In this document: positions 1 through 58,449 of the stretch, piece by piece
How positions within the stretch are numbered: the first letter of the stretch is position 1
Layout of the letters: each line of letters starts with the position of its first letter
Program-made: the position numbers and the translations under genes
Source of the DNA: Escherichia phage SUT_E420
DNA: 64,000 bases
Direction: 5' to 3' (one strand)
Sequence record: OQ990039
The notes under the pieces: generated by a model
Databases searched by the model: none
Told to the model about the DNA's origin: nothing
What the model saw: the letters and a program-made list of their open reading frames with translations, nothing else

Positions 1-71
1 ACGAAAGAAACGTTTGTCTATTCCGAAATCAATAACATCTACTGTGTTAACGTAGGGTCTTGATACTTCCA

Positions 72-554
72 TTACTTCTTACCTCCAGTAGCTAGGGAAG
101 TAATTAAGTCCATGTAGTTTTGATCCCCAGCTCCAGCAATAATATTATTCTGGATGTTGGTCTGGTTAGCTGGAGTACGGGCTGCTGCCTTCACTTTCTC
201 CAATTCTACCATCATTTTCATTTCTTCCATTTTCATTTTATGTGCTTTCCAGAGAATATCCATAATATCTTGGTCAGAACCCATGCCAGTTTCTTCCAGT
301 TCCTCTAGTTTACGCTTGATAACCTCATCTAGAACACCAAATAAACGATCTCTGTTACGGAATCCACTCTCCATAAAAATATCGTTTAAGTAATTCTTAA
401 CTTCACTACGATTCATAATATCTCGGAAAGCAATTTCGGACATCCCAAGACTACGTGCGGCAGAAGGCACATCGCTGCCGCACTGTAAATACGCTTCAAT
501 TACATCCATCCCTTCAGGGGACATAAGATCTGGTACTAATACATCATTTGCCAT
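72..554 (-). CDS. hypothetical protein, possible helix-turn-helix
   Basis: 160-aa ORF co-oriented with and just downstream of the pb5-like gene; segment [20 protein letters not shown] looks HTH-like; no family assigned. Confidence 0.5.
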
Positions 555-564
555 ATTTCCTCCT

Positions 565-2664
565 TTAGGTAAGGCGTTGAATTATAAGTTTAATATTTGG
601 TAAGCATGCTTTCATGCCAATTATATTGCTCATAGAGGATTCTAACCAAATAGAGATATTATTATTTCCATCATTTCTCATATAATATGTTAGAGTATAG
701 TAACCCGTTTGACCTACTGATCCCGGCAACCCAGATACCCAGTACGGAGTTGGAGTATACCCAGCAGCCTGTAATTTACAAGCNNNNNNNNNNNNNNNNN
801 NNNNNNNNNNNNNNNNNNNNNNNNNNNNNNNNNNNNNNNNNNNNNNNNNNNNNNNNNNNNNNNNNNNNNNNNNNNNNNNNNNNGTTTGACCTACTGATCC
901 CGGCAACCCAGATACCCAGTACGGAGTTGGAGTATACCCAGCAGCCTGTAATTTACAAGCATTTACTACAGTACCTTTAATAGTAAAAAATGGTACATAT
1001 TCTCCTGCAGGTAGGGACAATATTTGGTGAAGTTTTTTATCGATAGTATTGCCACCCATTCTGAACCTACTATCTCCATATTCGGCGCCTTTAGATAGCA
1101 TTTCCGTAGGATTAAAGCAGCCAATACCTCCTGCAGACAACCATGTGTCATCCAGGAACTCCATAGTACATACAATTGCGCCATTTCTACTACTATTAAG
1201 ATCTAGTCCCACGGTGCCAACATGCACGGAACCATTACCCTGAAATACTATGTTACCAGATAGTACAGTACTTCCGCTACCACCTAGAAGTCTTAAAGGT
1301 AAAAGATTCTCACTCCAAACATCTCCATAATTGCTGCCTATTTTTGGAGGATTACTAGAAACATACCAAGATGCTGAAGGTAAAAAGTTATAAATACTAA
1401 CTACATTAGTATTTAAACCACCAACGTTACCACCTTTAATACTTGGTGCGTTATTGCTTTCCGTAGTGGGCAGCCCAAATGTTGCTATGCCAGAAACTCC
1501 AGTAGAGGGGGCACCCATACTCAAGTTACACCCAACATCACGAAAATCAGCTCTGCTACCTACATTAAAGTTTTTCTCAACAAAGTTAATAAACTTCCAT
1601 GACGTATTATTAACATTAACCCCTTTAATAATAAACTCTCTTGGGCTAAGTTTAATATCATTGCCAGTAAATAGCCCACTATCAATACTGTATCCTGAGC
1701 CATTGTATACTAGATTGGTAACATACCAAGTAATTTTAGATGGATAAATACCGAGGTGCTCACTATATATACCTATAGGCCCATTAGCAGCATCATTCGG
1801 ATCACCCATACTTTCCCAATAAGCATAGTTAGTGGGATCAGCACGTGCGAAACCTACAGAGTACTTAGGAGCCGAGGGATTGCTAGGGTTATCTATAAAG
1901 TTAAGAGCCCCAGAACTAGAAGCACCGTGCACAGCTCCAGCAGTGGTATAGTTAGGCCCTTCCATACCGTAAAGAACTCTATTGCAAGATCTACCACGAA
2001 CATATATGGCGTTAAATCCAAAGTTTCTAGCTCCGGGATGCCTAACGTAGTCGCTAGGGATAGTTATGGATCCTGAGCTGGGCACAATATATCCTGAACC
2101 ATCCCAGGCAGACTTATAAAGAGCGGCACCACCTAAGTACATTGCACTAGATGCAAATCCTCTACGCCCACTAAAGGCGCCAAACATATGCTGACATCCA
2201 GTACCATCTCTAAGCTTCTGGGGAATAGTTCCACTAGTTCCACTGTTAAAATAACCTACATCAAGGGATAGATCAGCACTAGCTGTTATTTGTGTTTTTA
2301 AGCCACCCTGGGACATGACCTGTGGATTTATAATTCCGTACGCCTTAGCACCTACCCCCATAGACATACCGGATAACATATGTCTAGAGCCATCTGAGAA
2401 CTCAATCTCCGTCAGCACAACTCTATTAGGATCATTATTATGTAACTGGGTAATTCTGCTAGGCATATCAGACCAGTAGTAATCTCCAGCACCTTGATCT
2501 AGCCTTAACCCTGTGGAGTGAGTTTCTGTTATGATAACATGGGGCATATCTGAATGGAATATGGTCTGAGAGTCAGGATTAATATGTTGATTAGTATCTC
2601 CGCCACTACCCCTGCGCAGAGAGAGTATAGATTTATTATTTAGCTTGCCAGCGAAAAAACTCAT
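565..2664 (-). CDS. oad: receptor-binding tail protein, pb5-like
   Basis: 699-aa Gly-rich ORF divergent from llp-type lipoprotein gene; includes about 59 artefactual residues from N-gap 782-883 plus duplicated flank, so true length is near 640 aa. Confidence 0.75.
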
Positions 2665-2683
2665 AAGTTCTCCAAAAATTTAA

Positions 2684-2712
2684 TTGCCTATATTGCTATA
2701 ATTCTGTATAAT
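2684..2712 (+). promoter_or_regulatory. sigma70-type promoter for llp (-35 TTGCCT, 17 bp, -10 TATAAT)
   Basis: TTGCCT at 2684-2689 and TATAAT at 2707-2712, followed by AGGAGA Shine-Dalgarno and ATG at 2744. Confidence 0.6.
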
Positions 2713-2743
2713 AGTATTATAAATTAAACATAGGAGAATGTAA

Positions 2744-2977
2744 ATGAAAAAATTATTTTTAGCTATGGCAGTGGTACTTCTTTCGGCTTGCTCTACTTTT
2801 GGTCCTAAAGATATTAAATGTGAGGCCTACTATGTACAAGATCATGTGAAATATAAGGCTAATGTTTTTGATAGGAAAGGGGATATGTTTTTGGTGTCAC
2901 CAATTATGGCCTATGGGTCTTTTTGGGCTCCCGTAAGCTACTTTACTGAGGGGAATACATGTGAGGGAGTTTTCTAA
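2744..2977 (+). CDS. llp: Llp-like lipoprotein (receptor-blocking superinfection exclusion)
   Basis: 77 aa; signal peptide MKKLFLAMAVVLLSAC with lipobox LSAC; divergent from receptor-binding protein gene. Confidence 0.8.
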   Translation: MKKLFLAMAVVLLSACSTFGPKDIKCEAYYVQDHVKYKANVFDRKGDMFLVSPIMAYGSFWAPVSYFTEGNTCEGVF

Positions 2978-3238
2978 GTAAAAACGACCTTAGTAACTAT
3001 CACCACTTAAGATAATCCTAGCGCAGAATTAGTCCAGGATGCCACACAAGACACTAGGGAAGGTATAATAAGAATATTTATACTAATCACTGCAATTGCT
3101 AGGGTATTCCAAATACCATACTCATAGGAGCATGAAAGATATGTCAAATAAAAGAAAGAACAGACGTGGAGAAGTGTACGAAGCGTGGGTTAATATTTAC
3201 GGATTTGGTTTTGTATTATTCTTAATCTTCGTAGGTTT

Positions 3239-3424
3239 TTGGTTAGCAGCTATGGCGGGGTGGCTATAATGGAATGGGTAATTATTGGCATATTCGTCTT
3301 ATTGATACTTCTCTTTGCAGGCTTACGTGTAATAGATACCTCTGTAACCCAAACAGAGATTAAATTAATGCAGTTGAGCAATAGATTATCTAGAATTGAA
3401 ACTTTATTAGAGGAGCGTAAATAA
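3239..3424 (+). CDS. small membrane protein (TM helix plus coiled coil)
   Basis: ORF with MEWVIIGIFVLLILLFAG hydrophobic N-terminus; likely true start at internal MEWVII (about 3269). Confidence 0.5.
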   Translation: MVSSYGGVAIMEWVIIGIFVLLILLFAGLRVIDTSVTQTEIKLMQLSNRLSRIETLLEERK

Positions 3425-3531
3425 TGGAATGGGTAATTATTGCACTACTGGGGATTGTGATTATTGGGCAATGTATCTTAGATAATCACTTAGCTAGAAT
3501 CGAAACCTTACTATCGGAGAAACATAAATGA
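3424..3531 (+). CDS. small membrane protein, paralog of preceding ORF
   Basis: 35-aa ORF MEWVIIALLGIVIIG... starting at TAATG overlap with upstream stop; ends ...IETLL-like as upstream paralog. Confidence 0.35.
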   Translation: MEWVIIALLGIVIIGQCILDNHLARIETLLSEKHK

Positions 3532-3722
3532 TGGAAGTGGCAATTACACTAATGGTAATATTAGTCTGGGTAATCCTCATTGTCTCTCGTATCGTGTATC
3601 TCCGCCTAAAAACTCTAGAAGCCCAGGTAAAACAACAACAAGTTATTCTAGAAAAGCTAGTACTACTGCAACGTTGTGATAGCACCCGTATTCTGCAAAT
3701 TGAGAGGGAATTAGATGTTTAG
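3528..3722 (+). CDS. small membrane protein
   Basis: 64-aa ORF, hydrophobic N-terminus ITLMVILVWVILIV, start overlaps upstream stop (ATGA). Confidence 0.5.
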   Translation: MMEVAITLMVILVWVILIVSRIVYLRLKTLEAQVKQQQVILEKLVLLQRCDSTRILQIERELDV

Positions 3723-3960
3723 TATTATAATTGCTTTTATTATCGGGATACTCGCGGGAGTTTTCGGGACGACTGCGGCAATCAATAAGCATCGGGAATA
3801 TATTGCGGGAGTGACGCGGGAGATTGCGGAAAGGGAGCGGAAGTTTGACGAGAAACGTGCGGAGTTTGAGCGAGAGTGGTCGGATGGATCTCGGGCGTCG
3901 CGGAAGAGATTCCGGGAGTTCAGACCAGAACACAGGTTTGATGACCCTTCTATGCGCTAA
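3715..3960 (+). CDS. small membrane protein with basic/acidic C-terminal tail
   Basis: 81-aa ORF, N-terminal TM segment IIIAFIIGILAGVFG, overlapping start with upstream ORF. Confidence 0.5.
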   Translation: MFSIIIAFIIGILAGVFGTTAAINKHREYIAGVTREIAERERKFDEKRAEFEREWSDGSRASRKRFREFRPEHRFDDPSMR

Positions 3961-4062
3961 TTCGACTTTTGTCAAATTTCATAAGATTACACATGGAGGT
4001 GTGTCCAGTGGCTCCCCAGATGAGAATGAGTCTCATTACCGCCCGGTACTTAGCAAGCTAAT

Positions 4063-4095
4063 AGTCACGGCATGTTATCATTACACACCGTGACT
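4063..4095. terminator. hairpin between convergent genes (possible bidirectional terminator)
   Basis: 8-bp stem AGTCACGG/CCGTGACT with 17-nt loop between the end of the plus-strand small-gene array and the dmp-like gene. Confidence 0.35.
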
Positions 4096-4111
4096 ATTTC
4101 AACTTTAATTA

Positions 4112-4846
4112 TTACGCAACTTTTAATTTCTCAATATATTGTTGCGGGCTGCAACTATATTCTGCGCGTTCTTCCTCGGTCATACTTTCCCAACATAATT
4201 TCAAACGATCAGCTAGGAACTGATAATCATTATCATCATCGAGAGATTCATCGATAAAGGTTTCACCTATCAATGCAACGCCGATTGATAGAATATCGTT
4301 AATGGCTTGCGCGTCCAGCGTTTTAAATCCGTATGATGCCGCCGCTGATAGCACGCCTTTATGATCGTCAATCATTGTAAAGTCAGCGTTTGGATATAAT
4401 TGTTTAAATAATTCAAAATAATACGATTTATAAATGGCGTCTTTGCTGTGGTATATCTCGCTAACTTTATCAGCTTCAAAATATTTGTGTAGTGTATCGC
4501 GGGAAAATACACGGATATTACTATCACCACGACCGCGCAACCCTTGTTTACGCAAATAATAATAGTCCGACTTGCTCATTAGTCGAGCGGTGCAAATAAT
4601 GTTTAAAGTATTTGCATCATTCATACATTGGCGCATATATTCAACCAATGGCAATAAAGTATCTTGCATTATTAAATGATGTTTGCAGGCTTCATTTTTA
4701 TACTTATTTAAATCTAAATTGCCCTCACTATCAAAGCAAGGCGCTACACGATGGAAAGAATTAATGATAGTGCCGTCTAAATCCCAAATCATGACGCGGG
4801 AAATATGCGGGAAATTACGGGAAATATTCATAATAGCTTTATTCAT
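4112..4846 (-). CDS. dmp: HAD-family 5'-deoxyribonucleotidase, Dmp-like
   Basis: 244 aa; DLDGT HAD phosphatase motif near N-terminus; size matches T5 pre-early Dmp. Confidence 0.7.
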   Translation of the reverse strand: MNKAIMNISRNFPHISRVMIWDLDGTIINSFHRVAPCFDSEGNLDLNKYKNEACKHHLIMQDTLLPLVEYMRQCMNDANTLNIICTARLMSKSDYYYLRKQGLRGRGDSNIRVFSRDTLHKYFEADKVSEIYHSKDAIYKSYYFELFKQLYPNADFTMIDDHKGVLSAAASYGFKTLDAQAINDILSIGVALIGETFIDESLDDDNDYQFLADRLKLCWESMTEEERAEYSCSPQQYIEKLKVA

Positions 4847-4925
4847 TTGTTACGTTCTCCATTAAAGGGATTTAGTTTATCCAGCATTACCCGCTATTTA
4901 TAAGCGGGTAATAATAAATCAACTA

Positions 4926-5318
4926 TTAAAGACCATAAGCCAACGCATCAGCAATAAAACTAATATCCTCACCTGATACATGGGAACGAATACCCGCGCA
5001 GGTATATACCTTTGCGCTCGCTAGCTGATCATCAAGGCAAGCGAGGCAAGGCGCGACAACTGCAAAGGCTAGGCCGGATTTTACTGCGTCGATGATAATC
5101 GTTTCTTGTTTCACCGTGTCAATATAAACGCCTTTTGCTTTAATATGGCTTGTTAGTTTGCCTTGCATATATGCAAATGTTGTAACCTGCATCGCATCAT
5201 TGAAATCTAACAATTCATCAATAACGTGCCACGCCTCGACGTGATAACGTTCACCATTAGAATAAACCAGAACAATGGAAGACTGAGCGCGATCGAATGG
5301 AATATTTTGCTTTTTCAT
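4926..5318 (-). CDS. hypothetical protein
   Basis: 130-aa ORF co-oriented with dmp-like gene, short intergenic gap. Confidence 0.5.
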   Translation of the reverse strand: MKKQNIPFDRAQSSIVLVYSNGERYHVEAWHVIDELLDFNDAMQVTTFAYMQGKLTSHIKAKGVYIDTVKQETIIIDAVKSGLAFAVVAPCLACLDDQLASAKVYTCAGIRSHVSGEDISFIADALAYGL

Positions 5319-5356
5319 ATTTATAAAACCCCAATTAGTTTAATAATGGATTTAAA

Positions 5357-5704
5357 TTATTTGATAATAATCTGCATCTGGTACGGCGTTAATTCACCGT
5401 TTACGGGTAGATTATTATCACTTAGCCACTCATAAAAAGCGCTATCGTCATCAAAAGGAACAACATCATTATCACGGTAATCTACGGAAATAACGCCATC
5501 AGTATTAGTTTTAGCGGCTAGGATAGGCCCGAAGCTGTAAACTTTATCAGATTCCATTTCATCCGGTGAAATNNNNNNNNNNNNNNNNNNNNNNNNNNNN
5601 NNNNNNNNNNNNNNNNNNNNNNNNNNNNNNNNNNNNNNNNNNNNNNNNNNNNNNNNNNNNNNNNNNNNNNNNGAAGTGAGCACGGCTAAACATGATATGA
5701 TCAT
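5357..5704 (-). CDS. hypothetical protein (N-terminus obscured by N-gap)
   Basis: ORF runs into N-gap 5572-5672; annotated N-terminus is not trustworthy. Confidence 0.4.
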   Translation of the reverse strand: MIISCLAVLTXXXXXXXXXXXXXXXXXXXXXXXXXXXXXXXXXXISPDEMESDKVYSFGPILAAKTNTDGVISVDYRDNDVVPFDDDSAFYEWLSDNNLPVNGELTPYQMQIIIK

Positions 5705-6134
5705 TTTAGTCGATTGTCATACTGGCTATTGCGGGGAAGGGAATACCGAGGAATACTTTGTTCCTGCTGGTACGGATCTGGACGCTTTCGCTCATGAAAT
5801 GGCTATTGATAATGCTTCTCGTTTTGGTAGCGATGGCTATGAAGACGAAGAAACTGGCGAATGGTATGAAAATGAAAACGTATATGCTGGCCTTTATCAT
5901 TATCAATTAAGTAAATCCGGCACATATGTAAACGGCGGCGATCCTATTAATTCCGTCATGAAATTAATTATTAAATATGGTGGCGTCGAAATAATTGATA
6001 ATAAAGCGGTAATATACGCAAATCGATTAAAACAGCTTGTTTATATTCCTGATAATACCCGATGGGAGGAATACGCTGTTTTACATGATGAATTAAAACG
6101 ATGTTTCAATGTTGAATCCTTACAGGTAGTTTAA
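5676..6134 (+). CDS. hypothetical protein
   Basis: 152-aa ORF starting right after N-gap; true start may lie in the gap. Confidence 0.5.
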   Translation: MSTAKHDMIILVDCHTGYCGEGNTEEYFVPAGTDLDAFAHEMAIDNASRFGSDGYEDEETGEWYENENVYAGLYHYQLSKSGTYVNGGDPINSVMKLIIKYGGVEIIDNKAVIYANRLKQLVYIPDNTRWEEYAVLHDELKRCFNVESLQVV

Positions 6135-6238
6135 TGTAAAGTTTTGTAAAGGTCGCCTTTTATGGTGGCCTTTTTTGTTATAATGCTTTTACACCAAAAC
6201 GGTGGATTAAAAATTTCCCAAAAATTTGGAGGCTTAAA

Positions 6239-6469
6239 ATGGTTGCTTACTCTTCTGCTACTCATCTGTTCACCGCTCAAGGCTGGGTATCTAACCGCGC
6301 CATTATTCATGAAATGGTGCAGGAGTTCGGCATTGCTAAAACTTATAACACCATCCAAGAACTATACAACGCCGATAAAATCGATCAGCAAACGGCGGGC
6401 TTTTTGCTGGACACGCTGAAAGCGGAACACTGTACTAAAAAACAAGCTGCAAAAATTGTTTTAATGTAA
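6239..6469 (+). CDS. hypothetical protein
   Basis: 76-aa ORF with upstream GGAGG-like ribosome-binding site. Confidence 0.5.
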   Translation: MVAYSSATHLFTAQGWVSNRAIIHEMVQEFGIAKTYNTIQELYNADKIDQQTAGFLLDTLKAEHCTKKQAAKIVLM

Positions 6470-6519
6470 TTAGTAACGGGGGATATTATATCCCTCACTG
6501 ACTAGGAGAATAAAAAAAA

Positions 6520-6669
6520 ATGGTTATTTTTCGAGCTATTCTGGCGGGTATCTTGGGCGCTATTTTATCGTTGTTTGCAATAGCTTTTGGCGTTCACGCC
6601 GTTATTATTGGCGCTGGCATTGCTGCGTTTTCTTATCTGCTGGGCTGCATGACTAGTAAAGGAGAATAA
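6520..6669 (+). CDS. small membrane protein (49 aa)
   Basis: Below ORF-track cutoff; AGGAGA ribosome-binding site then ATG; entirely hydrophobic; stop followed directly by next gene. Confidence 0.4.
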   Translation: MVIFRAILAGILGAILSLFAIAFGVHAVIIGAGIAAFSYLLGCMTSKGE

Positions 6670-6671
6670 AA

Positions 6672-6884
6672 ATGATCCGCAACGTTTCCCTTGCACGTTC
6701 GAAAGGCTTTAAGCTGGTGGATGTTAACACGTTCGAGCGGGAAGATTGTAAAATCGAATATGTAGCACGTAACAAAAATGCCTTTCGTGTTACCGAGAAA
6801 AAATTTGATAAGCGCGGCAACGTGATAGCTGAAACAGTTAAACACTTTGCCACCTTTTACGCTGCGTTTCGTGGGGTACTATGA
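6672..6884 (+). CDS. hypothetical protein
   Basis: 70-aa ORF, AGGAGA ribosome-binding site upstream. Confidence 0.5.
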   Translation: MIRNVSLARSKGFKLVDVNTFEREDCKIEYVARNKNAFRVTEKKFDKRGNVIAETVKHFATFYAAFRGVL

Positions 6885-7126
6885 AAAGCGTTATTGTTAT
6901 TATCCTTGCAATGGCTGGCGGTTTTATCGCCACCTTATTTAAAAATGACCCCATTTCATTGGGGATCTTTATGCTTTTATCTGGCTATCTAATCGGGAGG
7001 CTAACAAATGATTCAGCAAATTAAAACGGCTTTTCGTTTTTGGGGCGTCCTGCCTTCAATTGGTTTTATTCTGATAATTATTAGTCAGCTAATGATCATC
7101 GGCGGAACTATTTGGGAGCTATGCAA

Positions 7127-7471
7127 ATGATAATTTATGAAGGCAATCGTTTTGTTGCTAATTGCCGCCCAGCATTATTAGCAAACTATTTAAATCAGCT
7201 TTCCCCAGCTTATAAGGGCGTTATTAATATTTATGAGGGCAAGGCACATTATAAAATTAATGCGGTCGTTGCCCGTGAACTAGCGTTTCAATTTTTGACC
7301 TTTGCATCTTGTGACGTTCAGGTTATGGGTGAAGCATTAATTGCAGAAAATGAAGATGATTTTATTAATATTTTCCGCAAGGTATGTACCGAGCGCCTGA
7401 TAATGAAAGGCGCATATATTCAATCCACTGCGGATAGTATTGAAACAGCGTTTCGAAAGGTGGCGCAATGA
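7127..7471 (+). CDS. hypothetical protein
   Basis: ORF 7112-7471; likely start at MIIYEGNRF (ATGA overlap with a small upstream membrane ORF). Confidence 0.5.
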   Translation: MIIYEGNRFVANCRPALLANYLNQLSPAYKGVINIYEGKAHYKINAVVARELAFQFLTFASCDVQVMGEALIAENEDDFINIFRKVCTERLIMKGAYIQSTADSIETAFRKVAQ

Positions 7472-7572
7472 GATTATATATTTTCGTTGGTAATAGTAAG
7501 GCCGCTAATGATTCCGCTGGTGGCGATAACATTCGCCACTATTGGCAAAAATATATTTACTAGGGAGTTATT

Positions 7573-7767
7573 ATGAGTAATAAAATAGTTGTAACCAAGA
7601 TCAGTACAATGGTTGATGTTTTTTACGTGCCAGATACGCCGGAGAATCGGCAAGCGGTCGAGCGTGGCGAATATGATAAAGTGATTTATGATCACGATGG
7701 TTATTATCAGTATTTGGTGGATTCCTACGGGGAGGAGGAAAAAATCACGCATCGACTACCAGACTAA
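7573..7767 (+). CDS. hypothetical protein
   Basis: 64-aa ORF with AGGGAG ribosome-binding site; last gene before non-coding repeat region. Confidence 0.5.
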   Translation: MSNKIVVTKISTMVDVFYVPDTPENRQAVERGEYDKVIYDHDGYYQYLVDSYGEEEKITHRLPD

Positions 7768-8051
7768 TAATCACGGGGCGCAACTATCAGGGAGTGCCCC
7801 CAATTTTCAAATGAGAATGATTCTCATTTAACCGCGCCCGCGATGGTTAGCCTGCTAATGATTAGGGTGTTACGTGTCGCCTTGTGTGATCGTTAGCTCG
7901 CTAACTAATTTCTAAGCCTCCTCCAATTTTACCCGTGTTTTAGTATCCCCAACAAAATTAAACGCGTTAGAATGCGTTTGAGAGCGTTTTAGCTGTATAT
8001 TAGAATTATTCACTGCATAGGAATACTGTATATTTATACAGTAGGATAAGC

Positions 8052-8133
8052 TGTTGATAAGTCTGTTGATAACGCCTCAAAATGGCTAGGATTTTGTCAA
8101 GTCAAATCGTGCTGTTGATAAGTCTGTGGATAA
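8052..8133. repeat. cluster of four DnaA-box-like 9-mers
   Basis: TGTTGATAA at 8052, 8064, 8113 and TGTGGATAA at 8125 (reverse complement of TTATCCACA), all in direct orientation. Confidence 0.6.
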
Positions 8134-8149
8134 CTTAAATAATAGTGTT

Positions 8150-8330
8150 TCTCACTTCCATTCTTAAATACGAATCAGTATCATTCGCATTTCACTATCT
8201 AACTAATAATCATTCCACTTTTTAAATGAGAATCGTTTCACTTCCTGAATAATTCTCACTTCCATTCTTAAATGCGAATTATTATCATTCACATTCCGCT
8301 TTTTAAATGAGAATGATTCTCATTATCATT
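8150..8330. repeat. direct repeats and palindromes (GAGAATGATTCTC family)
   Basis: TTCTCACTTCCATTCTTAAAT(A/G)CGAAT occurs twice; palindrome AAATGAGAATGATTCTCATT at 8305-8324; similar palindromes near 7811 and 4024. Confidence 0.6.
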
Positions 8331-8366
8331 CGTATTCAGGCAAGCAGGGCAATTGCCCTGCGCTTT

Positions 8367-8968
8367 TGTGCAAATCCGACATTTGCCCCCATGGATTACG
8401 CGTGGGCGTGTATGTGCGAATCCGACAATTTTTGGTAGTGTGCAAATCCGACCCGAAAAATTTTTATAATGTGCGGATCCGACAATGAATTTTCCTAAAA
8501 ACTCCAGCAATCCGATGCTGCGCATCAATCCTGTGGAATTAACTAGAATATGTGCAAATCCGACATGGGTTTATTTGTGCGAATCCGACAAGATTTTTGT
8601 GACTTCGATTGGAGAGTGTGTGATTGTAAGAGTTTGGGGAGAAGTTGAGAGATCGAGAAAAATTTGAGGGAACTGCGAGAGGGGCGCATGTTTGGTGCGT
8701 AGCACCTGATTTGCGGGGATTTTGGGGAAGAGTTGAGAAGATTTGGGTTAATTTGAGATTAGTGCAGATAAAGTAAAATCTTATTAGCTAAATGGGGCAA
8801 AATAGCTTGACAAGTGAAAGTTTCTGTGGCTCTAAAAACTCAGGCAATCATGGGCCTTCGGCCCGAAATAATGCTGCCATTTTCAAGAGATTATATGTTC
8901 CTAAAAACTTAGGCAATTGTGCAAATCCGACCATAAATTTCTAGAAACACAATGTGCAAATCCGACAG
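8367..8968. repeat. dispersed 15-mer repeat family TGTGC(A/G)(A/G)ATCCGAC(A/C), about 8 copies
   Basis: Copies near 8367, 8413, 8439, 8470, 8551, 8576, 8928, 8954 in non-coding DNA; irregular spacing. Confidence 0.65.
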
Positions 8969-9503
8969 TAATTTCTGGAAATGTGTTTTCAAAAAATGTC
9001 TCCTAGAAATAACCGCCCTCCCCATAACCGCCCTGTATTAAACCGCCTAGTATATGTTCCTAGAAACTTAGGAGAACCGCCCTAGAAAGAGTGAGTATTT
9101 CGTGAGAACTCTGGAGTTTCTAGGAAAGTGTTGTGCCATCCTAGCAGATGAGCGGCAACAGGTGTATCATCTTGAATGTAAATTATGTGGTCAAAAGTTT
9201 TACTTTTATTTTAAATATAAGATCCCCCAGGGTTCTCATATAGAGCTTTGCCCCCGCCAGAAGGTCTCGTGATGTTTCTAGCAATTTATATTAAATTACT
9301 TATTAACTTGTCCTGTCGCTCCGTATCCTCCGCTACAAGTTAGTAATTTTAAATTACTGAACCACCACACCTTCTGTGTGGCAACTCTAAATGGTTAATT
9401 CTATTAACTCATAGAGTTATGATAACATACATTTAGCTATCTGTCAACGAGAGTTTGTATTTGAGTCTCGGTACAGGTATTGTGCACCGAGACATGCAGG
9501 ATC

Positions 9504-10388
9504 TTACAGTAACTCTTGGTATGCTTTTTGGTACGCCTCAGTGTCAGTAGGTGTATCTTTTGCTAGTGCAATTAGTTCATCTGTTATCTGAATGTTCGTA
9601 TTATAACGTGTGTGGAACTCGTTAGGAATTTCTAGGTATCTATTGATGAATGCTGCAGCAAGCGGTGTGACTAAACCAATCTCTAGAGATAGCTTAACTT
9701 GTTTTTCGTAGATTAAATATTGAGAATCAGATGGGGTTGGTGGGGTTACATCAATTTTCTCGGGTTCTTTTTCTGGAAGCAATGGATTATTATATAATGC
9801 TTCATCTGGAAGCACAGATTTACGCTCTTTAAATATATAAGTTTCTAGATCCGATGCTTTAGATCCTGAGTATACCGCAAAGATGCTAGCTTTACCCTGT
9901 GATGCCCTAACTGGTAAATAACTAGTAGGATAGCTTCTTAATGCATCATGGAATGGACTTCCTGAGTACTTGTATGTATCTCCATAGAGATCATCAATAT
10001 TCATTCGTTCATCTTCAAAGATGTGAAATGACTTAAATGGTGGAATGGTGAAGTATTCCATCTGTAACCCATAAACTAAGAAACGATGTGCATATGCACT
10101 GATTTTTAAGACTGTGAATGCTTTTTCACCTTCTTTATGGGCGTTGCCTTTTGAAGTAACTTGGTAACGTTTACAAAACATCTCTACTAGACGTTTCTCA
10201 TTAATACTAAGGGTGGAGTACAGTCGTCCACTTAATCCTATAAGTGCATCGAACATAAATGCTAGTTTATCTTTTTCTTCCTGGGTTAGTTCAGGAAATG
10301 GAAGTACTTTAGCATCAGGAACACTATTATTTTTCTTAGGTTTTGTTTTACCAGCGTTTTGTCTTAGTTTATCTTTAAAGTTATACAT
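9504..10388 (-). CDS. hypothetical protein
   Basis: 294-aa ORF, first gene of the long minus-strand block. Confidence 0.55.
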   Translation of the reverse strand: MYNFKDKLRQNAGKTKPKKNNSVPDAKVLPFPELTQEEKDKLAFMFDALIGLSGRLYSTLSINEKRLVEMFCKRYQVTSKGNAHKEGEKAFTVLKISAYAHRFLVYGLQMEYFTIPPFKSFHIFEDERMNIDDLYGDTYKYSGSPFHDALRSYPTSYLPVRASQGKASIFAVYSGSKASDLETYIFKERKSVLPDEALYNNPLLPEKEPEKIDVTPPTPSDSQYLIYEKQVKLSLEIGLVTPLAAAFINRYLEIPNEFHTRYNTNIQITDELIALAKDTPTDTEAYQKAYQELL

Positions 10389-10465
10389 TATTATCTCCCA
10401 TTTTTAAGGTCTGGATGACCTTCTTTTTATTTTAGAGCCTCCGTAGAGGCTCATGTATTAGAGGA

Positions 10466-42871: not shown

Positions 42872-43573
42872 TCAAATTTTCATTTTTTCGATCATAGCTG
42901 CAACACAATAGCTTTCAACTAAGGCATCAAATGCAGGATCATGCTTAACCGGATAGATCCCATAACGAATGGTGTCCATCTTCTCCATTTTAGCTTTTGC
43001 CCAGCTAATACCTTCAGCCTCTAGATCTTTGTAACTATAATCAGCTTGCATCCAGAGATTACGAAGAGATCGAACATTGCCCAAATTCCAGAATTTCCAC
43101 GGAACTACCTCTTCATTGGTTCCAGCATGGAATGTGTTTGCAGAGTAGATAGTCATATCAAACTCTGGGCCATTACCATAATACAAAGCATTTTCGCCTA
43201 GAGCCAACTCCATAATATTTTGAGCCATAGAGAAGGCAGCATAGTTTGAGCCAAATTTATTAGTGCAATGATGTTTACCATTTTGGAAGGCAATCAGTTT
43301 TGGATTACGTTCCTTCATAGCTTCCATAATGTGAATAGCAGACGGGCTATTTTTAGCTTGATCCATCCAGAATGCTAGAGTAGATGCTGTAACTTTAGCA
43401 CCAGAATTAAGCTGATCTTGTACATCCAAAGTAACAAATACTAGATCAGGGTCTTTATCAATTCCATGCATAGCCACAAAAGCGAAAGAAGGCATTGCGA
43501 TATGAGTAGTACCACAATCTCCTGGAGTTCCCAGAGATTCAATATCTAGCATACCAAATGGTTTTACTTTCAT
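42872..43573 (-). CDS. DnaQ-like 3'-5' exonuclease (DEDD family)
   Basis: 233 aa; LDIESLG (Exo I), YGNGPEFDMTIY (Exo II) and KHDPAFDAL (Exo III) motifs. Confidence 0.6.
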   Translation of the reverse strand: MKVKPFGMLDIESLGTPGDCGTTHIAMPSFAFVAMHGIDKDPDLVFVTLDVQDQLNSGAKVTASTLAFWMDQAKNSPSAIHIMEAMKERNPKLIAFQNGKHHCTNKFGSNYAAFSMAQNIMELALGENALYYGNGPEFDMTIYSANTFHAGTNEEVVPWKFWNLGNVRSLRNLWMQADYSYKDLEAEGISWAKAKMEKMDTIRYGIYPVKHDPAFDALVESYCVAAMIEKMKI

Positions 43574-58033: not shown

Positions 58034-58423
58034 ATGGAACAAGTATATTGGCGTCAGATTGACCCTAGTTTGGTGAAACGTGCGGAGAAGCTGCTACAAC
58101 GTTGGTTGGGGGTAAGACAAGCCTCCTTCACTTTTCCTGAGCAGCAAATAGATGATCCATGCATTGGCGTTTTCCTGTCTGGATACGCCAGGGAATGGGA
58201 ACTGGATTGGAATGAGTTGTCTGCTATGGGTTTAATTGTTGCCCTAAATTTCTCTTTGTTCCATCCACGTGGTTTTGCCATATGTCGTGTGCCGGATGAT
58301 GGTTGTTCGCCCCATCTTTTACAGGTGGAAAATGATATTTGGGAGTACACTCCAGATATTCTCAAAGAAGCTAAAGAACAATTAAACCGTGTTGGGATAT
58401 ATGTTCCGGGATTAAATGACTAA
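58034..58423 (+). CDS. hypothetical protein, paralog B
   Basis: 129 aa; tandem duplicate of preceding ORF. Confidence 0.5.
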   Translation: MEQVYWRQIDPSLVKRAEKLLQRWLGVRQASFTFPEQQIDDPCIGVFLSGYAREWELDWNELSAMGLIVALNFSLFHPRGFAICRVPDDGCSPHLLQVENDIWEYTPDILKEAKEQLNRVGIYVPGLND

Positions 58424-58449
58424 TGATTTTTATTAGCTGAACTCTGATT

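What the first reader, a model, noticed from the sequence alone, without database searches (positions are those of the whole stretch)
4024..8324. Recurring palindrome GAGAATGA(T/G)TCTC at three sites: candidate operator
Near-perfect palindromes of about 17-21 bp built on ATGAGAATGATTCTCAT occur at about 4024-4040 (between the small-gene array and dmp), 7811-7827 and 8305-8324. Dyad symmetry and recurrence in intergenic DNA suggest binding sites for a dimeric regulator.
Basis: seen in the sequence. Interest (0 to 1): 0.45.

Follow-up and report, generated by a model that had tools for sequence, protein, structure and literature searches.

The report
Fur-box palindromes in T5-like phage repeat
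The recurring palindrome is real and belongs to the long-known but unexplained repeats at the "injection stop" region and left DNA end of a T5-like phage; its sequence is indistinguishable from high-affinity binding sites (Fur boxes) of the host iron regulator Fur, which gives a testable lead on how T5 pauses DNA injection.

Summary
ATGAGAATGATTCTCAT lies at 7811-7827 and 8307-8323.

The window is a T5-like phage with a collapsed terminal repeat, about 4002-8832, and a 100-N assembly gap that hides A1 and A2. Site 1 sits 17-19 nt from the physical left DNA end. Sites 2 and 3 flank or lie in the untranslated injection-stop (iss) region that Davison described for T5. The palindrome is one arrangement of a half-site, AAATG(A/C)GAAT, arrayed at least 8 times there.

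I built a weight matrix from 14 footprinted E. coli Fur operators. It scores site 3 at 22.1 bits, above every training operator. Site 1 scores 17.9 and site 2 scores 15.0. The repeat holds 9 hits of at least 12 bits against 0.19 in shuffles, and 2 occur in the other 59 kb.

The exact 19-mer recurs in at least 120 bacterial genomes, preferentially upstream of iron-uptake genes. The motif is kept in Klebsiella, Pectobacterium, Proteus, Aeromonas and Vibrio relatives, next to conserved LexA-like and DnaA boxes.

There is no promoter or gene context and no compensatory changes. It is a protein-binding site, most likely for host Fur, and not a classical phage operator. Binding and function are inferred.

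The parts
4002..4019 (.). Left boundary of the terminal repeat, i.e. the physical left end of virion DNA (TGTCCAGTGGCTCCCCAG). These are the 18 nt that precede site 1.
   Evidence: Aligns with base 1 of T5 (TGTCCAC...). Five complete relatives that carry both repeats start with (T)GTCCAGTGGCC...CAG followed by ATGAGAATGAGTCTCAT.
4020..4045 (.). Site 1: palindrome ATGAGAATGAGTCTCAT (4020-4036) plus the conserved flank TACCGCCCG.
   Evidence: Fur matrix score is 17.9 bits for the 19-mer at 4022-4040. The 17-mer is identical in 20 of about 33 T5-like loci that hold this stretch. It is kept at nt 18-34 of Pectobacterium phage My1 and just after dmp in Aeromonas phage AhSzw-1. T5 itself has a degenerate version.
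7809..7829 (.). Site 2: 21-nt palindrome AAATGAGAATGATTCTCATTT, just after the last rightward pre-early ORF (7573-7767) and a GC hairpin followed by a T run.
   Evidence: Fur matrix scores are 15.0 bits (7813) and 12.0 bits (7807), an overlapping pair 6 bp apart. It forms a 22-nt inverted repeat with 8303-8324 (I1). It shares the flank ...CTCATT(T)A(A)CCGC...TTAGCnnnGCTAAT with site 1.
8303..8335 (.). Site 3 with its hexamer array: TTAAAT GAGAAT g ATTCTC ATTATC ATTCGT ATT. The 17-mer palindrome is 8307-8323.
   Evidence: Scores 22.1 bits at 8309 and 11.4 bits at 8303. It shares a 17-nt exact word with the aerobactin (iucA) Fur operator. It corresponds to T5 9690-9712 in the iss region.
8166..8192 (.). 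Family member: inverted half-sites with a 7-nt spacer, AAATACGAAT cagtatc ATTCGCATTT.
   Evidence: (D2). Fur matrix score is 10.7 bits at 8170.
8224..8233 (+). Solitary half-site AAATGAGAAT (a DRC-type direct repeat).
   Evidence: (D2).
8268..8297 (.). Family member: AAATGCGAAT tattatc ATTCACATT.
   Evidence: Fur matrix scores are 15.3 bits (8274) and 12.1 bits (8268), 6 bp apart.
8149..8319 (+). Two 67-nt direct repeats (8149-8215 and 8253-8319, 82% identical) that carry the half-site arrays. They correspond to the DRE1/DRE2 repeats of T5.
   Evidence: D4. Davison preprint 10.1101/866236, sections 3.3.1 and 4.2. Strongly conserved in 29 relatives.
8024..8043 (.). Neighbouring LexA/SOS-box-like palindrome TACTGTATATTTATACAGTA.
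   Evidence: One mismatch to the 20-nt consensus (recalled from own knowledge); only 1 of 100 shuffles gives any hit. CTGT-N8-ACAG is kept next to DnaA boxes in six other Demerecviridae.
8052..8133 (-). Two pairs of DnaA or DnaA-like boxes: 8052/8064 and 8113/8125. The last, TGTGGATAA, is consensus.
   Evidence: Described for T5 by Davison.
4216..4240 (.). Fur-box-like sequence inside the dmp coding region, including a perfect TGATAATCATTATCA. Membership in the element is uncertain, because it may simply reflect the conserved peptide DDDNDYQ.
   Evidence: 16.8 and 16.4 bits. Conserved in T5 and Sugarland, and a related site sits in the dmp gene of Proteus phage 2.
8823..8832 (.). Right boundary of the terminal repeat (...TCTGTGGCTC|TAAAAACT). 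It bounds the region to which the motif is confined.
   Evidence: Homology with the T5 repeat end at 10219. Complete relatives end in TTTCTGTGGCTC.

Best explanation
The palindromes are Fur-box-type protein-binding sites in the terminal repeat of a T5-like phage. This is the first-step-transfer DNA, the first 8% of the genome to enter the cell.

They are built from hexamers (GAGAAT, GATAAT or GCGAAT and their complements) phased every 6 bp. This is the architecture on which dimers of the host iron regulator Fur (with Fe2+) bind on opposite faces and spread.

One site lies 17-19 nt from the left DNA end. One lies at the left edge of the untranslated injection-stop (iss) region. An array of at least 5 sites fills the two 67-nt DRE repeats, at the position that corresponds to T5's 7.9% stop/shear point. 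The array sits beside a near-consensus LexA box and four DnaA boxes.

Most likely, host Fur occupies these sites as soon as the DNA enters. The conserved neighbouring boxes suggest DnaA and LexA bind alongside it. The result would be a nucleoprotein complex at both extremities of the first-step DNA. That complex could contribute to arrest, anchoring or end protection, and could make these steps sensitive to host iron status.

Shown here:
- The sites exist.
- They are confined to the repeat.
- They are conserved deeply.
- They are not maintained by base-pairing.
- They are statistically indistinguishable from, or better than, footprinted Fur operators.
- The same 19-mer precedes iron-uptake genes in bacteria.

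Inferred: that Fur actually binds them during infection, and what the binding achieves.
For: 1. Fur matrix.
- I built a 19-nt matrix from 14 DNase-footprinted E. coli K-12 operators. Coordinates came from Chen et al. 2007, PMC2189734, Table 3; sequences were fetched; the matrix was built.
- It scores the training sites at 9.9-20.9 bits.
- It scores the independent iucA operator at 20.4 bits.
- It scores site 3 at 22.1, site 1 at 17.9, site 2 at 15.0, and 8274 at 15.3 bits.

2. Enrichment. There are 9 hits of at least 12 bits in 4002-8832. Shuffles give a mean of 0.19 and a maximum of 2 in 300. The other 59 kb has 2 hits.

3. Calibration. In a 20-kb E. coli control, the same threshold hits only the four known Fur-regulated promoter regions.

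4. Paired hits. Hits come in pairs offset by 6 bp (7807/7813, 8268/8274, 8303/8309). Chen et al. describe this as the hallmark of Fur clusters.

5. Shared words with real operators.
- Site 3 shares 17 consecutive nt with the iucA operator, against at most 13 in 200 control pieces of the window.
- A relative's variant, ATGAGAATGGTTATCAT, is identical to part of the fecI operator.

6. Bacterial genomes.
My own estimate of the chance expectation is about 4-30.
- The motif is intergenic in 63 of the 80 loci checked.
- 28 of 104 ORFs that start within 400 nt downstream are TonB-dependent receptors, FeoB, FTR1, ZnuA-type or Fe-type binding proteins. Among distant ORFs in the same loci the figure is 6 of 585 (odds ratio 36). 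Twelve of the 28 were the query proteins themselves.

7. Conservation in relatives.
- The same enrichment holds in the repeats of T5 (6 hits), Sugarland (6), My1 (9), Proteus phage 2 (5) and Aeromonas AhSzw-1 (7). In each case 0 of 200 shuffles reach the observed count.
- It holds although the A1 proteins are only 34-73% identical.

8. Protein site rather than structure. Deviations from the consensus are uncompensated in 119 cases and compensated in 5. Single-strand hairpins are only -2 to -6 kcal/mol.
Against: - There is no experimental binding data.
- Fur's known role is at promoters, and here there is no promoter or gene context.
- T5 itself lacks sites 1 and 2, so those two are dispensable in at least one lineage.
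- Vibrio phage D342 has only one site above threshold, which is not significant.
- Site 1 carries an extra conserved flank (TTACCGCC) and a conserved G that breaks the symmetry. This hints at an additional or different constraint near the terminus.
- Three of the nine hits in the repeat lie in coding DNA (two in dmp, one at 5808).
- The matrix was seeded with the textbook consensus and has only 14 sites.
- A phage protein with Fur-like specificity cannot be excluded. A2 is an essential DNA-binding protein conserved in all these phages.
- It is not obvious how cytoplasmic proteins could stop DNA that is being pushed in.
Confidence: 0.5

Rival explanations
1. The sites are bound by a phage-encoded pre-early protein, most plausibly A2 (alone or with A1). 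This protein would be needed to restart DNA transfer, and the likeness to Fur boxes would be coincidental or convergent.
For: - A2 is a DNA-binding protein essential for second-step transfer with no known target (bioRxiv 10.64898/2026.04.02.716235).
- A2 is present in every lineage that keeps the motif: 58% identical in My1, 40% in Proteus phage 2, 34% in AhSzw-1.
- The sites sit where the DNA pauses.
Against: - Nothing links A2 to this sequence.
- This reading requires several things to be chance: scores at or above real Fur operators, the 6-bp phasing, a 17-nt identity with the iucA operator, and the association of the same 19-mer with iron-uptake genes in bacteria.
- The neighbouring DnaA and LexA boxes are also host-protein motifs.
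Confidence: 0.2
2. The sites are recognition signals for a DNA-processing enzyme. Site 1 in particular would guide terminase in making or holding the left end. Alternatively, as Davison proposed, the iss palindromes are cleavage sites for an A1/A2 'restriction' activity.
For: - Site 1 lies at a fixed 17-19 nt from the deposited left end in five Tequintavirus genomes and in My1.
- Its right half plus flank (AGTCTCATTACCGCC) is recognisable even where the left half is lost: T5, Sugarland and Proteus phage 2.
- ACCGCC repeats also lie just outside the right repeat boundary.
- Davison's hypothesis is in preprint 10.1101/866236, section 4.6.
Against: - Most copies lie about 500-1000 nt from the repeat's right end and several kb from its left end, so they are not at the cut sites.
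- T5 packages normally without a palindromic site 1.
- An array of degenerate hexamers is not typical of a cleavage site.
- No cleavage data exist.
Confidence: 0.1
3. This is the first reader's reading: classical operators through which a phage-encoded dimeric repressor controls transcription of phage genes.
For: - The sites have dyad symmetry and recur.
- Weak promoter-like matches overlap some sites, for example TTTAAA-16-TATCAT at 8302-8329.
- Pre-early transcription is known to be shut off under A1 control (annotation).
Against: - The sites lie downstream of terminators, at the DNA end, or in a gene-free region.
- The known pre-early promoters lie elsewhere, and no palindrome copy occurs in that part of the repeat.
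- Promoter-like matches are not enriched.
- No HTH family was found in the pre-early proteins.
- There is no Rfam match for a regulated RNA.
Confidence: 0.08
4. The palindromes act through nucleic-acid structure, as a cruciform or single-strand hairpin in DNA, or as a terminator hairpin in RNA.
For: The three sites fold better than shuffles as single strands (z -3.1 to -4.4). Site 2 follows a terminator-like hairpin.
Against: - Stabilities are low (-3.9, -6.3 and -6.1 kcal/mol), and family members with 7-nt spacers are weaker still.
- Across 59 distinct variants, 119 departures break pairing and only 5 are compensated.
- There is no Rfam match.
Confidence: 0.03
5. The resemblance has no function. 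The motif would be an AT-rich repeat spread by local duplication, as with DRE1/DRE2, and carried along with an otherwise important region.
For: Several copies lie in two 67-nt direct repeats that are 82% identical. The whole iss core is highly conserved among close relatives, so conservation there is not specific to the motif.
Against: In distant relatives (My1, Proteus, Aeromonas, Vibrio) the surrounding sequence has diverged, while the motif, the LexA box and the DnaA boxes persist. Site 1 is invariant while the 10 nt before it vary.
Confidence: 0.07

Closest known systems
Fur boxes (iron boxes) of E. coli and other bacteria, e.g. the operators of iucA (aerobactin), ryhB, fecI, fepB and fhuA
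   Same: The sequence class is the same: a 19-nt GATAATGATAATCATTATC-type site, built from a 7-1-7 core (TGAnAAT n ATTnTCA). Overlapping sites are offset by 6 bp. Scores fall within or above the range of footprinted operators. The window shares 17 nt with the iucA operator and 13 nt (AATGAGAATGATT) with the ryhB operator region. The identical 19-mer precedes iron-uptake genes in many bacteria.
   Different: The sites do not overlap a promoter of any gene. They sit at a DNA end and in an untranslated region of a virulent phage. Binding by Fur is untested.
Repeat Region 3 / injection stop signal (iss) of phage T5: the DRC and DRE repeats and palindromes palE-palH (Heusterspreute 1987; Wang 2005; Davison 2015 and preprint 10.1101/866236)
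   Same: Sites 2 and 3 and the other family members lie in the homologous region, in the same order: LexA-like palindrome, DnaA box pairs, DRE repeats with the motif, GC palindrome and nick site, then DRD repeats.
   Different: T5 has no site 2 and only a degenerate site 1. [quoted passage not shown] I could not map my sites to the individual pal/DRC names because the figures are not held.
Fur-regulated cargo genes on temperate phages (stx1 of Shiga-toxin phages; the sitABCD operon on lambdoid phages)
   Same: A host Fur box is carried on a phage genome. The sit example is from PMC6969025; stx1 is from my own knowledge.
   Different: Those boxes overlap the promoter of a cargo gene and act as ordinary operators. 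Here there is no regulated gene and the phage is virulent.
Davison's DnaA-box model of T5 injection arrest
   Same: The logic is the same: conserved boxes for a host DNA-binding protein in the iss region are proposed to hold the entering DNA.
   Different: That model involves only DnaA. The Fur-like arrays and the LexA-like box are not mentioned in it; a search of the text found no occurrences of LexA or SOS, and the 'fur' word-start matches shown were other words such as 'further'.

Membership tests
Fur box (binding site of the ferric uptake regulator) | Match to the 19-nt Fur consensus or weight matrix at the level of experimentally footprinted sites | tested here: met
   Site 3 scores 22.1, site 1 scores 17.9 and site 2 scores 15.0 bits. 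The 14 training operators score 9.9-20.9 and the independent iucA operator scores 20.4.
Fur box (binding site of the ferric uptake regulator) | Clustered, overlapping sites offset by 6 (or 3) bp, reflecting several dimers on one stretch | tested here: met
   Pairs occur at 7807/7813, 8268/8274, 8303/8309 and 4216/4222. The criterion comes from Chen et al. 2007.
Fur box (binding site of the ferric uptake regulator) | The same sequence is used upstream of iron-uptake genes in bacteria | tested here: met
   The exact 19-mer occurs in at least 120 species genomes. Of downstream ORFs, 28 of 104 are iron or metal uptake genes, against 6 of 585 elsewhere in the same loci. Twelve of the 28 were the query proteins.
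Fur box (binding site of the ferric uptake regulator) | Overlaps the -35/-10 region of a regulated promoter | tested here: not met
   No annotated or enriched promoter and no downstream gene. There are only 9-10 of 12 consensus matches, at a density similar to shuffles.
Fur box (binding site of the ferric uptake regulator) | Metal-dependent binding by Fur protein (EMSA, footprint or ChIP) and iron-dependent effect | not testable with these tools
   Needs experiments.
T5-type injection-stop (iss) repeat region | Lies in the large untranslated stretch at the right end of the terminal repeat, collinear with the DnaA box pairs and the DRE and DRD repeats | tested here: met
   Sites 2 and 3 lie at 7809-8335. 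The window is collinear and about 90% identical with T5 9321-10436. Site 1 is not part of this region.
T5-type injection-stop (iss) repeat region | Acts in cis to stop DNA transfer at about 8% of the genome | not testable with these tools
   Two-step transfer has been shown only for T5 and BF23. No mutational data exist for the motif.
Transcriptional operator of a phage-encoded repressor | Positioned at a promoter of phage genes, with a cognate regulator encoded nearby | tested here: not met
   The sites lie after terminators, at the DNA end, or in a gene-free region. No HTH family was found among the pre-early proteins. A2 has HTH-like folds, but no link to the sites was found.
Structured DNA/RNA element (cruciform, hairpin, intrinsic terminator) | Pairing maintained by compensatory changes; stable stem | tested here: not met
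   5 compensated against 119 broken deviations. Stabilities are -2 to -6.3 kcal/mol. No Rfam hit.

The most novel reading that the evidence does not exclude
The injection-stop region and the left end of T5-like phage DNA would be a conserved landing pad for three host DNA-binding proteins: Fur, LexA and DnaA. The phage would use these host regulators as structural parts, not as transcription factors. Because the Fur boxes sit at both extremities of the first-step DNA, Fur oligomers could tie the free left end to the stop complex. That would protect the end from RecBCD and/or close a loop. It would also make the pause and restart of DNA transfer depend on the host's iron state, and through LexA on its SOS state.
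Probability: 0.2. Interest if true: 0.8.

Novelty: new member of a known kind. Interest (0 to 1): 0.55.

Why it matters
How T5 stops DNA entry at 8% of its genome has been an open question since the 1960s. The iss region has been described as a bewildering array of repeats with no assigned function.

Part of that array is made of near-ideal Fur boxes. These sit beside a near-consensus LexA box and the already noted DnaA boxes, and the arrangement is kept in Proteus and Aeromonas phages, and more weakly (a single Fur-type site) in a Vibrio phage. Recognising this turns an undeciphered region into a short list of purified host proteins and host mutants to test.

If Fur binds, it would be an example of a virulent phage using a host metalloregulator's sites outside transcription control. 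It would also link infection through Fur-regulated receptors (FhuA, FepA) to iron sensing inside the cell.

If Fur does not bind, the same sites become the prime candidate target of the essential but uncharacterised A2 protein.

Tried and rejected
- Hairpin or cruciform reading: rejected. Stems are weak and there is almost no compensatory change.
- Known RNA families: no match in 3900-9600 at E up to 1.
- A promoter next to the sites: promoter-like matches are not enriched.
- An HTH regulator among the pre-early proteins: none in Pfam. PHROGs only repeats 'DNA binding protein' for A2. A sequence search of the PDB with A2 found nothing. The A2 model gave only weak HTH-like fold matches.
- More palindrome copies in the 5.5 kb hidden by the N gap: none in the identical phage SUT_E1520.
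- Prior literature: two look-ups of Davison 2015 (by its DOI and by a recalled PMC id) found no held paper, and Chen et al. has no supplement held. Searches for any earlier link between T5 or first-step transfer and Fur or LexA found nothing relevant.
- Other E. coli regulators considered from memory (ArgR, Zur, DeoR, SlmA, Fis, IHF, ArcA): half-site sequence or spacing does not fit. These were not tested with matrices.
- The dmp-internal perfect Fur core may be a by-product of the conserved peptide DDDNDYQ, so I do not count it as part of the element.

Full report
**1. What the window is**

BLAST places the window in the T5-like phages (Tequintavirus, Demerecviridae). It is 100% identical to Escherichia phage SUT_E1520 over the parts that align. 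The gene at 4112-4846 (minus strand) is dmp, which in T5 is the first gene at the left end of the genome.

Window 4002 aligns with base 1 of T5 (TGTCCAC...), and 8832 aligns with the end of the T5 terminal repeat (...TCTGTGGCTC). Five complete relatives that carry both repeats start with (T)GTCCAGTGG... and end with ...TTTCTGTGGCTC.

So the window comes from a collapsed, permuted assembly. Positions 1-4001 are the right end of the unique region (receptor-binding protein, llp, small genes). Positions 4002-8832 are the single copy of the terminal repeat, which is the first-step-transfer (FST) DNA. The rest is the left part of the unique region.

Window 5573-5672 is a run of 100 N. Compared with SUT_E1520, about 5.5 kb is missing there, carrying A1, A2 and repeat regions 1 and 2. 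The missing stretch holds no further copy of the palindrome.

**2. The observation**

The three sites are real.
- Site 1 is ATGAGAATGAGTCTCAT at 4020-4036, 4 nt left of the coordinates given.
- Site 2 is ATGAGAATGATTCTCAT at 7811-7827. It is a 21-nt palindrome over 7809-7829.
- Site 3 is the same 17-mer at 8307-8323.

With up to 3 mismatches the 17-mer is found 10 times (counting strands), against 0.48 expected. All matches lie between 4020 and 8323.

The sites are the most symmetric members of a family built on the half-site AAATG(A/C)GAAT. All six exact copies in 64 kb lie at 7809-8314. Further members have a 7-nt instead of a 1-nt spacer (8166-8192 and 8268-8297) or stand alone (8224-8233). 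To the right of site 3 the sequence continues in hexamer phase: GAGAAT g ATTCTC ATTATC ATTCGT.

**3. Place in the known anatomy of T5**

Sites 2 and 3 lie in the large untranslated region at the right end of the repeat. [quoted passage not shown]

Repeat Region 3 holds the inverted repeat IRD'-spacer-IRC' with DnaA boxes, two 66-bp DRE repeats, DRC repeats, palindromes palC-palJ and nine DRD repeats (Davison, bioRxiv 10.1101/866236). The window is collinear with it. My 67-nt repeats at 8149-8215 and 8253-8319 correspond to DRE1 and DRE2. The estimated shear point of the FST DNA in T5 falls in this stretch.

T5 has site 3 with one mismatch (GAGATTGATTCTC at 9694) and other family members, but no site 2 and only a degenerate site 1.

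Davison states that the function of these repeats cannot be guessed. He proposes that the palindromes might be cleavage sites for an A1/A2 nuclease. As of 2026 the region is still described only as rich in repeats and palindromes, and A2 as a DNA-binding protein with an unknown role in second-step transfer.

**4. Conservation**

In 38 IMG/VR loci of close relatives, the iss region always carries 4-6 copies of ATGAKAATNATTMKCAT, often 35 nt apart. The variants include the perfect Fur core TGATAATCATTATCA.

Site 1 is identical in 20 of about 33 loci that hold that stretch. The others carry the T5-type allele. In the alignment the 10 nt between the DNA end and site 1 vary, while the palindrome does not.

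Distant relatives keep the motif although the surrounding DNA has diverged:
- Klebsiella phage Sugarland has three copies 35 nt apart.
- Pectobacterium phage My1 has six copies in its iss region, plus one at nt 18-34 from its left end.
- Proteus phage 2 has TGAGAATGCTTCTCA plus three AGTAATGATAATCACT.
- Aeromonas phage AhSzw-1 has several, including GAGAATAAGTCTCATTACC just after dmp. This is identical to the My1 terminal site.
- Vibrio phage D342 has AAATGCGAATGCTTCTCATT.

In all of these phages a CTGT-N8-ACAG palindrome and DnaA boxes lie next to the motif.

**5. Protein site or structure**

As single strands the sites fold only weakly: -3.9, -6.3 and -6.1 kcal/mol.

I collected 59 distinct variants from all the phage loci. 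Departures from the consensus break the dyad pairing 119 times and are compensated 5 times. The variable positions are the 4th and 5th of each half. That is the pattern of independently degenerate half-sites of a protein-binding site, not of a conserved stem. Rfam finds nothing.

**6. Which protein: the Fur test**

The core TGAGAAT-g-ATTCTCA resembles the 7-1-7 Fur core TGATAAT-n-ATTATCA. That resemblance was a lead from memory, so I tested it.

- *Building the matrix.* I took the coordinates of DNase-footprinted E. coli K-12 Fur sites from Chen et al. 2007 (PMC2189734, Table 3) and fetched those regions from NC_000913.3. I then built a symmetric 19-nt weight matrix from the best site in each of 14 regions.
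- *Real operators share the phage hexamers.* Examples are ryhB (AATAATCATTCTCATTCGC), fecI (ATGAGAATGGTTATCAT), fepB (AATGCTTCTCATT) and fhuA (AATCATTCTCG).
- *Scores.* With the window's base composition as background, the training sites score 9.9-20.9 bits. The aerobactin operator was not used in training. Its sequence was verified to lie 20 nt upstream of iucA on ColV-type plasmids, and it scores 20.4 bits.
- *Scores in the window.* Site 3 scores 22.1, site 1 17.9 and site 2 15.0, with an overlapping 12.0. Position 8274 scores 15.3, with an overlapping 12.1. Positions 8303 and 8170 score 11.4 and 10.7.
- *Enrichment.* The repeat (4.7 kb of known sequence) has 9 hits of at least 12 bits. Dinucleotide shuffles give a mean of 0.19 and a maximum of 2 in 300. 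The remaining 59 kb has 2 hits.
- *Calibration.* In a 20-kb E. coli control the threshold picks only the four known Fur-regulated promoter regions.
- *Cluster signature.* Hits occur in pairs 6 nt apart, the signature of Fur clusters.
- *Shared word.* Site 3 shares a 17-nt exact word with the iucA operator, while 200 control pieces of the window share at most 13 nt with any operator in the set.
- *Relatives.* The same enrichment is seen in T5, Sugarland, My1, Proteus phage 2 and AhSzw-1, but not in Vibrio phage D342.

**7. Independent check in bacteria**

The exact 19-mer AATGAGAATGATTCTCATT was searched in one genome per bacterial species. My rough expectation is 4 for uniform composition and about 30 if all DNA were 35% G+C. 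Most hits are in Proteobacteria.

In 63 of 80 loci the motif is not inside a long open frame. Downstream genes sampled with Pfam were six TonB-dependent receptors, two FeoB, one FTR1 iron permease, two ZnuA-family proteins and one Fe3+-type binding protein, among 20 tested. The first ten were chosen partly by size.

In a less biased count, 28 of 104 ORFs that start within 400 nt downstream are homologues of those proteins. Among ORFs elsewhere in the same loci the figure is 6 of 585. The odds ratio is 36 and p = 2e-19. Twelve of the 28 are the queries themselves. So this very sequence is used in nature as a metal-uptake (Fur-type) operator.

**8. Is it an operator of phage genes?**

Site 1 lies between the hairpin that follows dmp (4060-4098) and the DNA end. 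Site 2 follows the last rightward ORF and a GC hairpin with a T run. Site 3 has no gene downstream within the repeat.

The known pre-early promoters are elsewhere, and promoter-like matches are not enriched. No pre-early protein matches an HTH family.

**9. Most likely mechanism**

The motif marks both extremities of the FST DNA. Between them it occurs only inside dmp and in one other coding region.

The best-supported reading is that these are Fur boxes occupied by host Fe2+-Fur as the DNA enters. They would act together with the adjacent LexA-like and DnaA boxes, forming a host-protein complex at the pause point and at the free end.

What that complex does is inference. It could serve arrest, anchoring, end protection or iron and SOS sensing. 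A real difficulty is that proteins bound to DNA already inside the cell do not obviously stop more DNA from entering. Also, T5 manages without sites 1 and 2.

Site 1 also carries a conserved flank (TTACCGCC) that recurs after site 2, and as AACCGCC repeats just beyond the right end of the repeat. A role in end formation or packaging may therefore overlap with the Fur-box reading.

**10. Novelty and verdict**

The repeats themselves have been known since 1987. The identification as Fur boxes, and the conserved LexA-like box, appear in neither Davison's preprint nor any paper I could search. The older subscription papers could not be read.

I rate the finding as a new member of a known kind: Fur-type sites in a new, non-promoter context. 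Its interest is moderate to high, because it makes the iss problem experimentally approachable.

Confidence that the sites are protein-binding sites is high. Confidence that Fur is the biologically relevant partner is about 0.5.

Noticed in passing
window 5573-5672: A run of 100 N, i.e. a scaffold gap. Compared with the otherwise identical phage SUT_E1520, about 5.5 kb is missing here. The missing stretch includes the essential genes A1 and A2 and repeat regions 1 and 2, so the terminal repeat looks half its real size.
   Followed up: yes
window 8024-8043 (also T5 L001 9411 and 6213; L045-L049): A near-consensus LexA/SOS box, TACTGTATATTTATACAGTA, lies between two pairs of DnaA boxes. CTGT-N8-ACAG next to DnaA boxes is kept in all six other Demerecviridae examined, and at least twice in five of them. 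LexA and SOS are not mentioned in Davison's description of the region.
   Followed up: partly
window 9011-9017, 9026-9032, 9041-9047, 9075-9081; also 4038-4043 and 7831-7838: AACCGCC(C/T) is repeated four times 180-250 nt outside the right end of the terminal repeat. The same ACCGCC motif directly follows site 1 and, in the form AACCGCGCC, site 2. This may be a packaging or terminase signal.
   Followed up: no
window 4221-4235 (inside dmp, 4112-4846 minus strand): A perfect Fur 7-1-7 core, TGATAATCATTATCA, lies in coding DNA that encodes DDDNDYQ. It is conserved in T5 and Sugarland, and the dmp gene of Proteus phage 2 has GAGAATCATTATC at the same end. It could be a codon by-product or a further site near the DNA end.
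   Followed up: partly
window 4050-4061, 7847-7858, 7893-7904: Three copies of a second palindrome, TTAGC-N3-GCTAA. One follows site 1 and two follow site 2. T5 has TTAGTCTGCTAA near its left end.
   Followed up: no
window 4002-4015 and 8822-8832: Both boundaries of the terminal repeat contain GTGGCTC: TGTCCAGTGGCTCC at the left, and TTCTGTGGCTC at the right as the last bases of the repeat. This may be related to end formation.
   Followed up: no
window 8344-8371: A GC-rich palindrome, GCAGGGCAATTGCCCTGC, followed by GCTTTTGTGC. It scores as a terminator-like site and corresponds to the position of T5's annotated major single-strand interruption (the 7.9% nick), about 30 nt right of site 3.
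   Followed up: partly
[not shown]
   Followed up: partly
window 5802-5826, 43177-43195, 58419-58437: Isolated Fur-matrix hits away from the non-coding arrays, two of them outside the repeat. They score 14.7 bits (inside a pre-early ORF), 13.1 bits and 14.1 bits. Their context was not examined.
   Followed up: no
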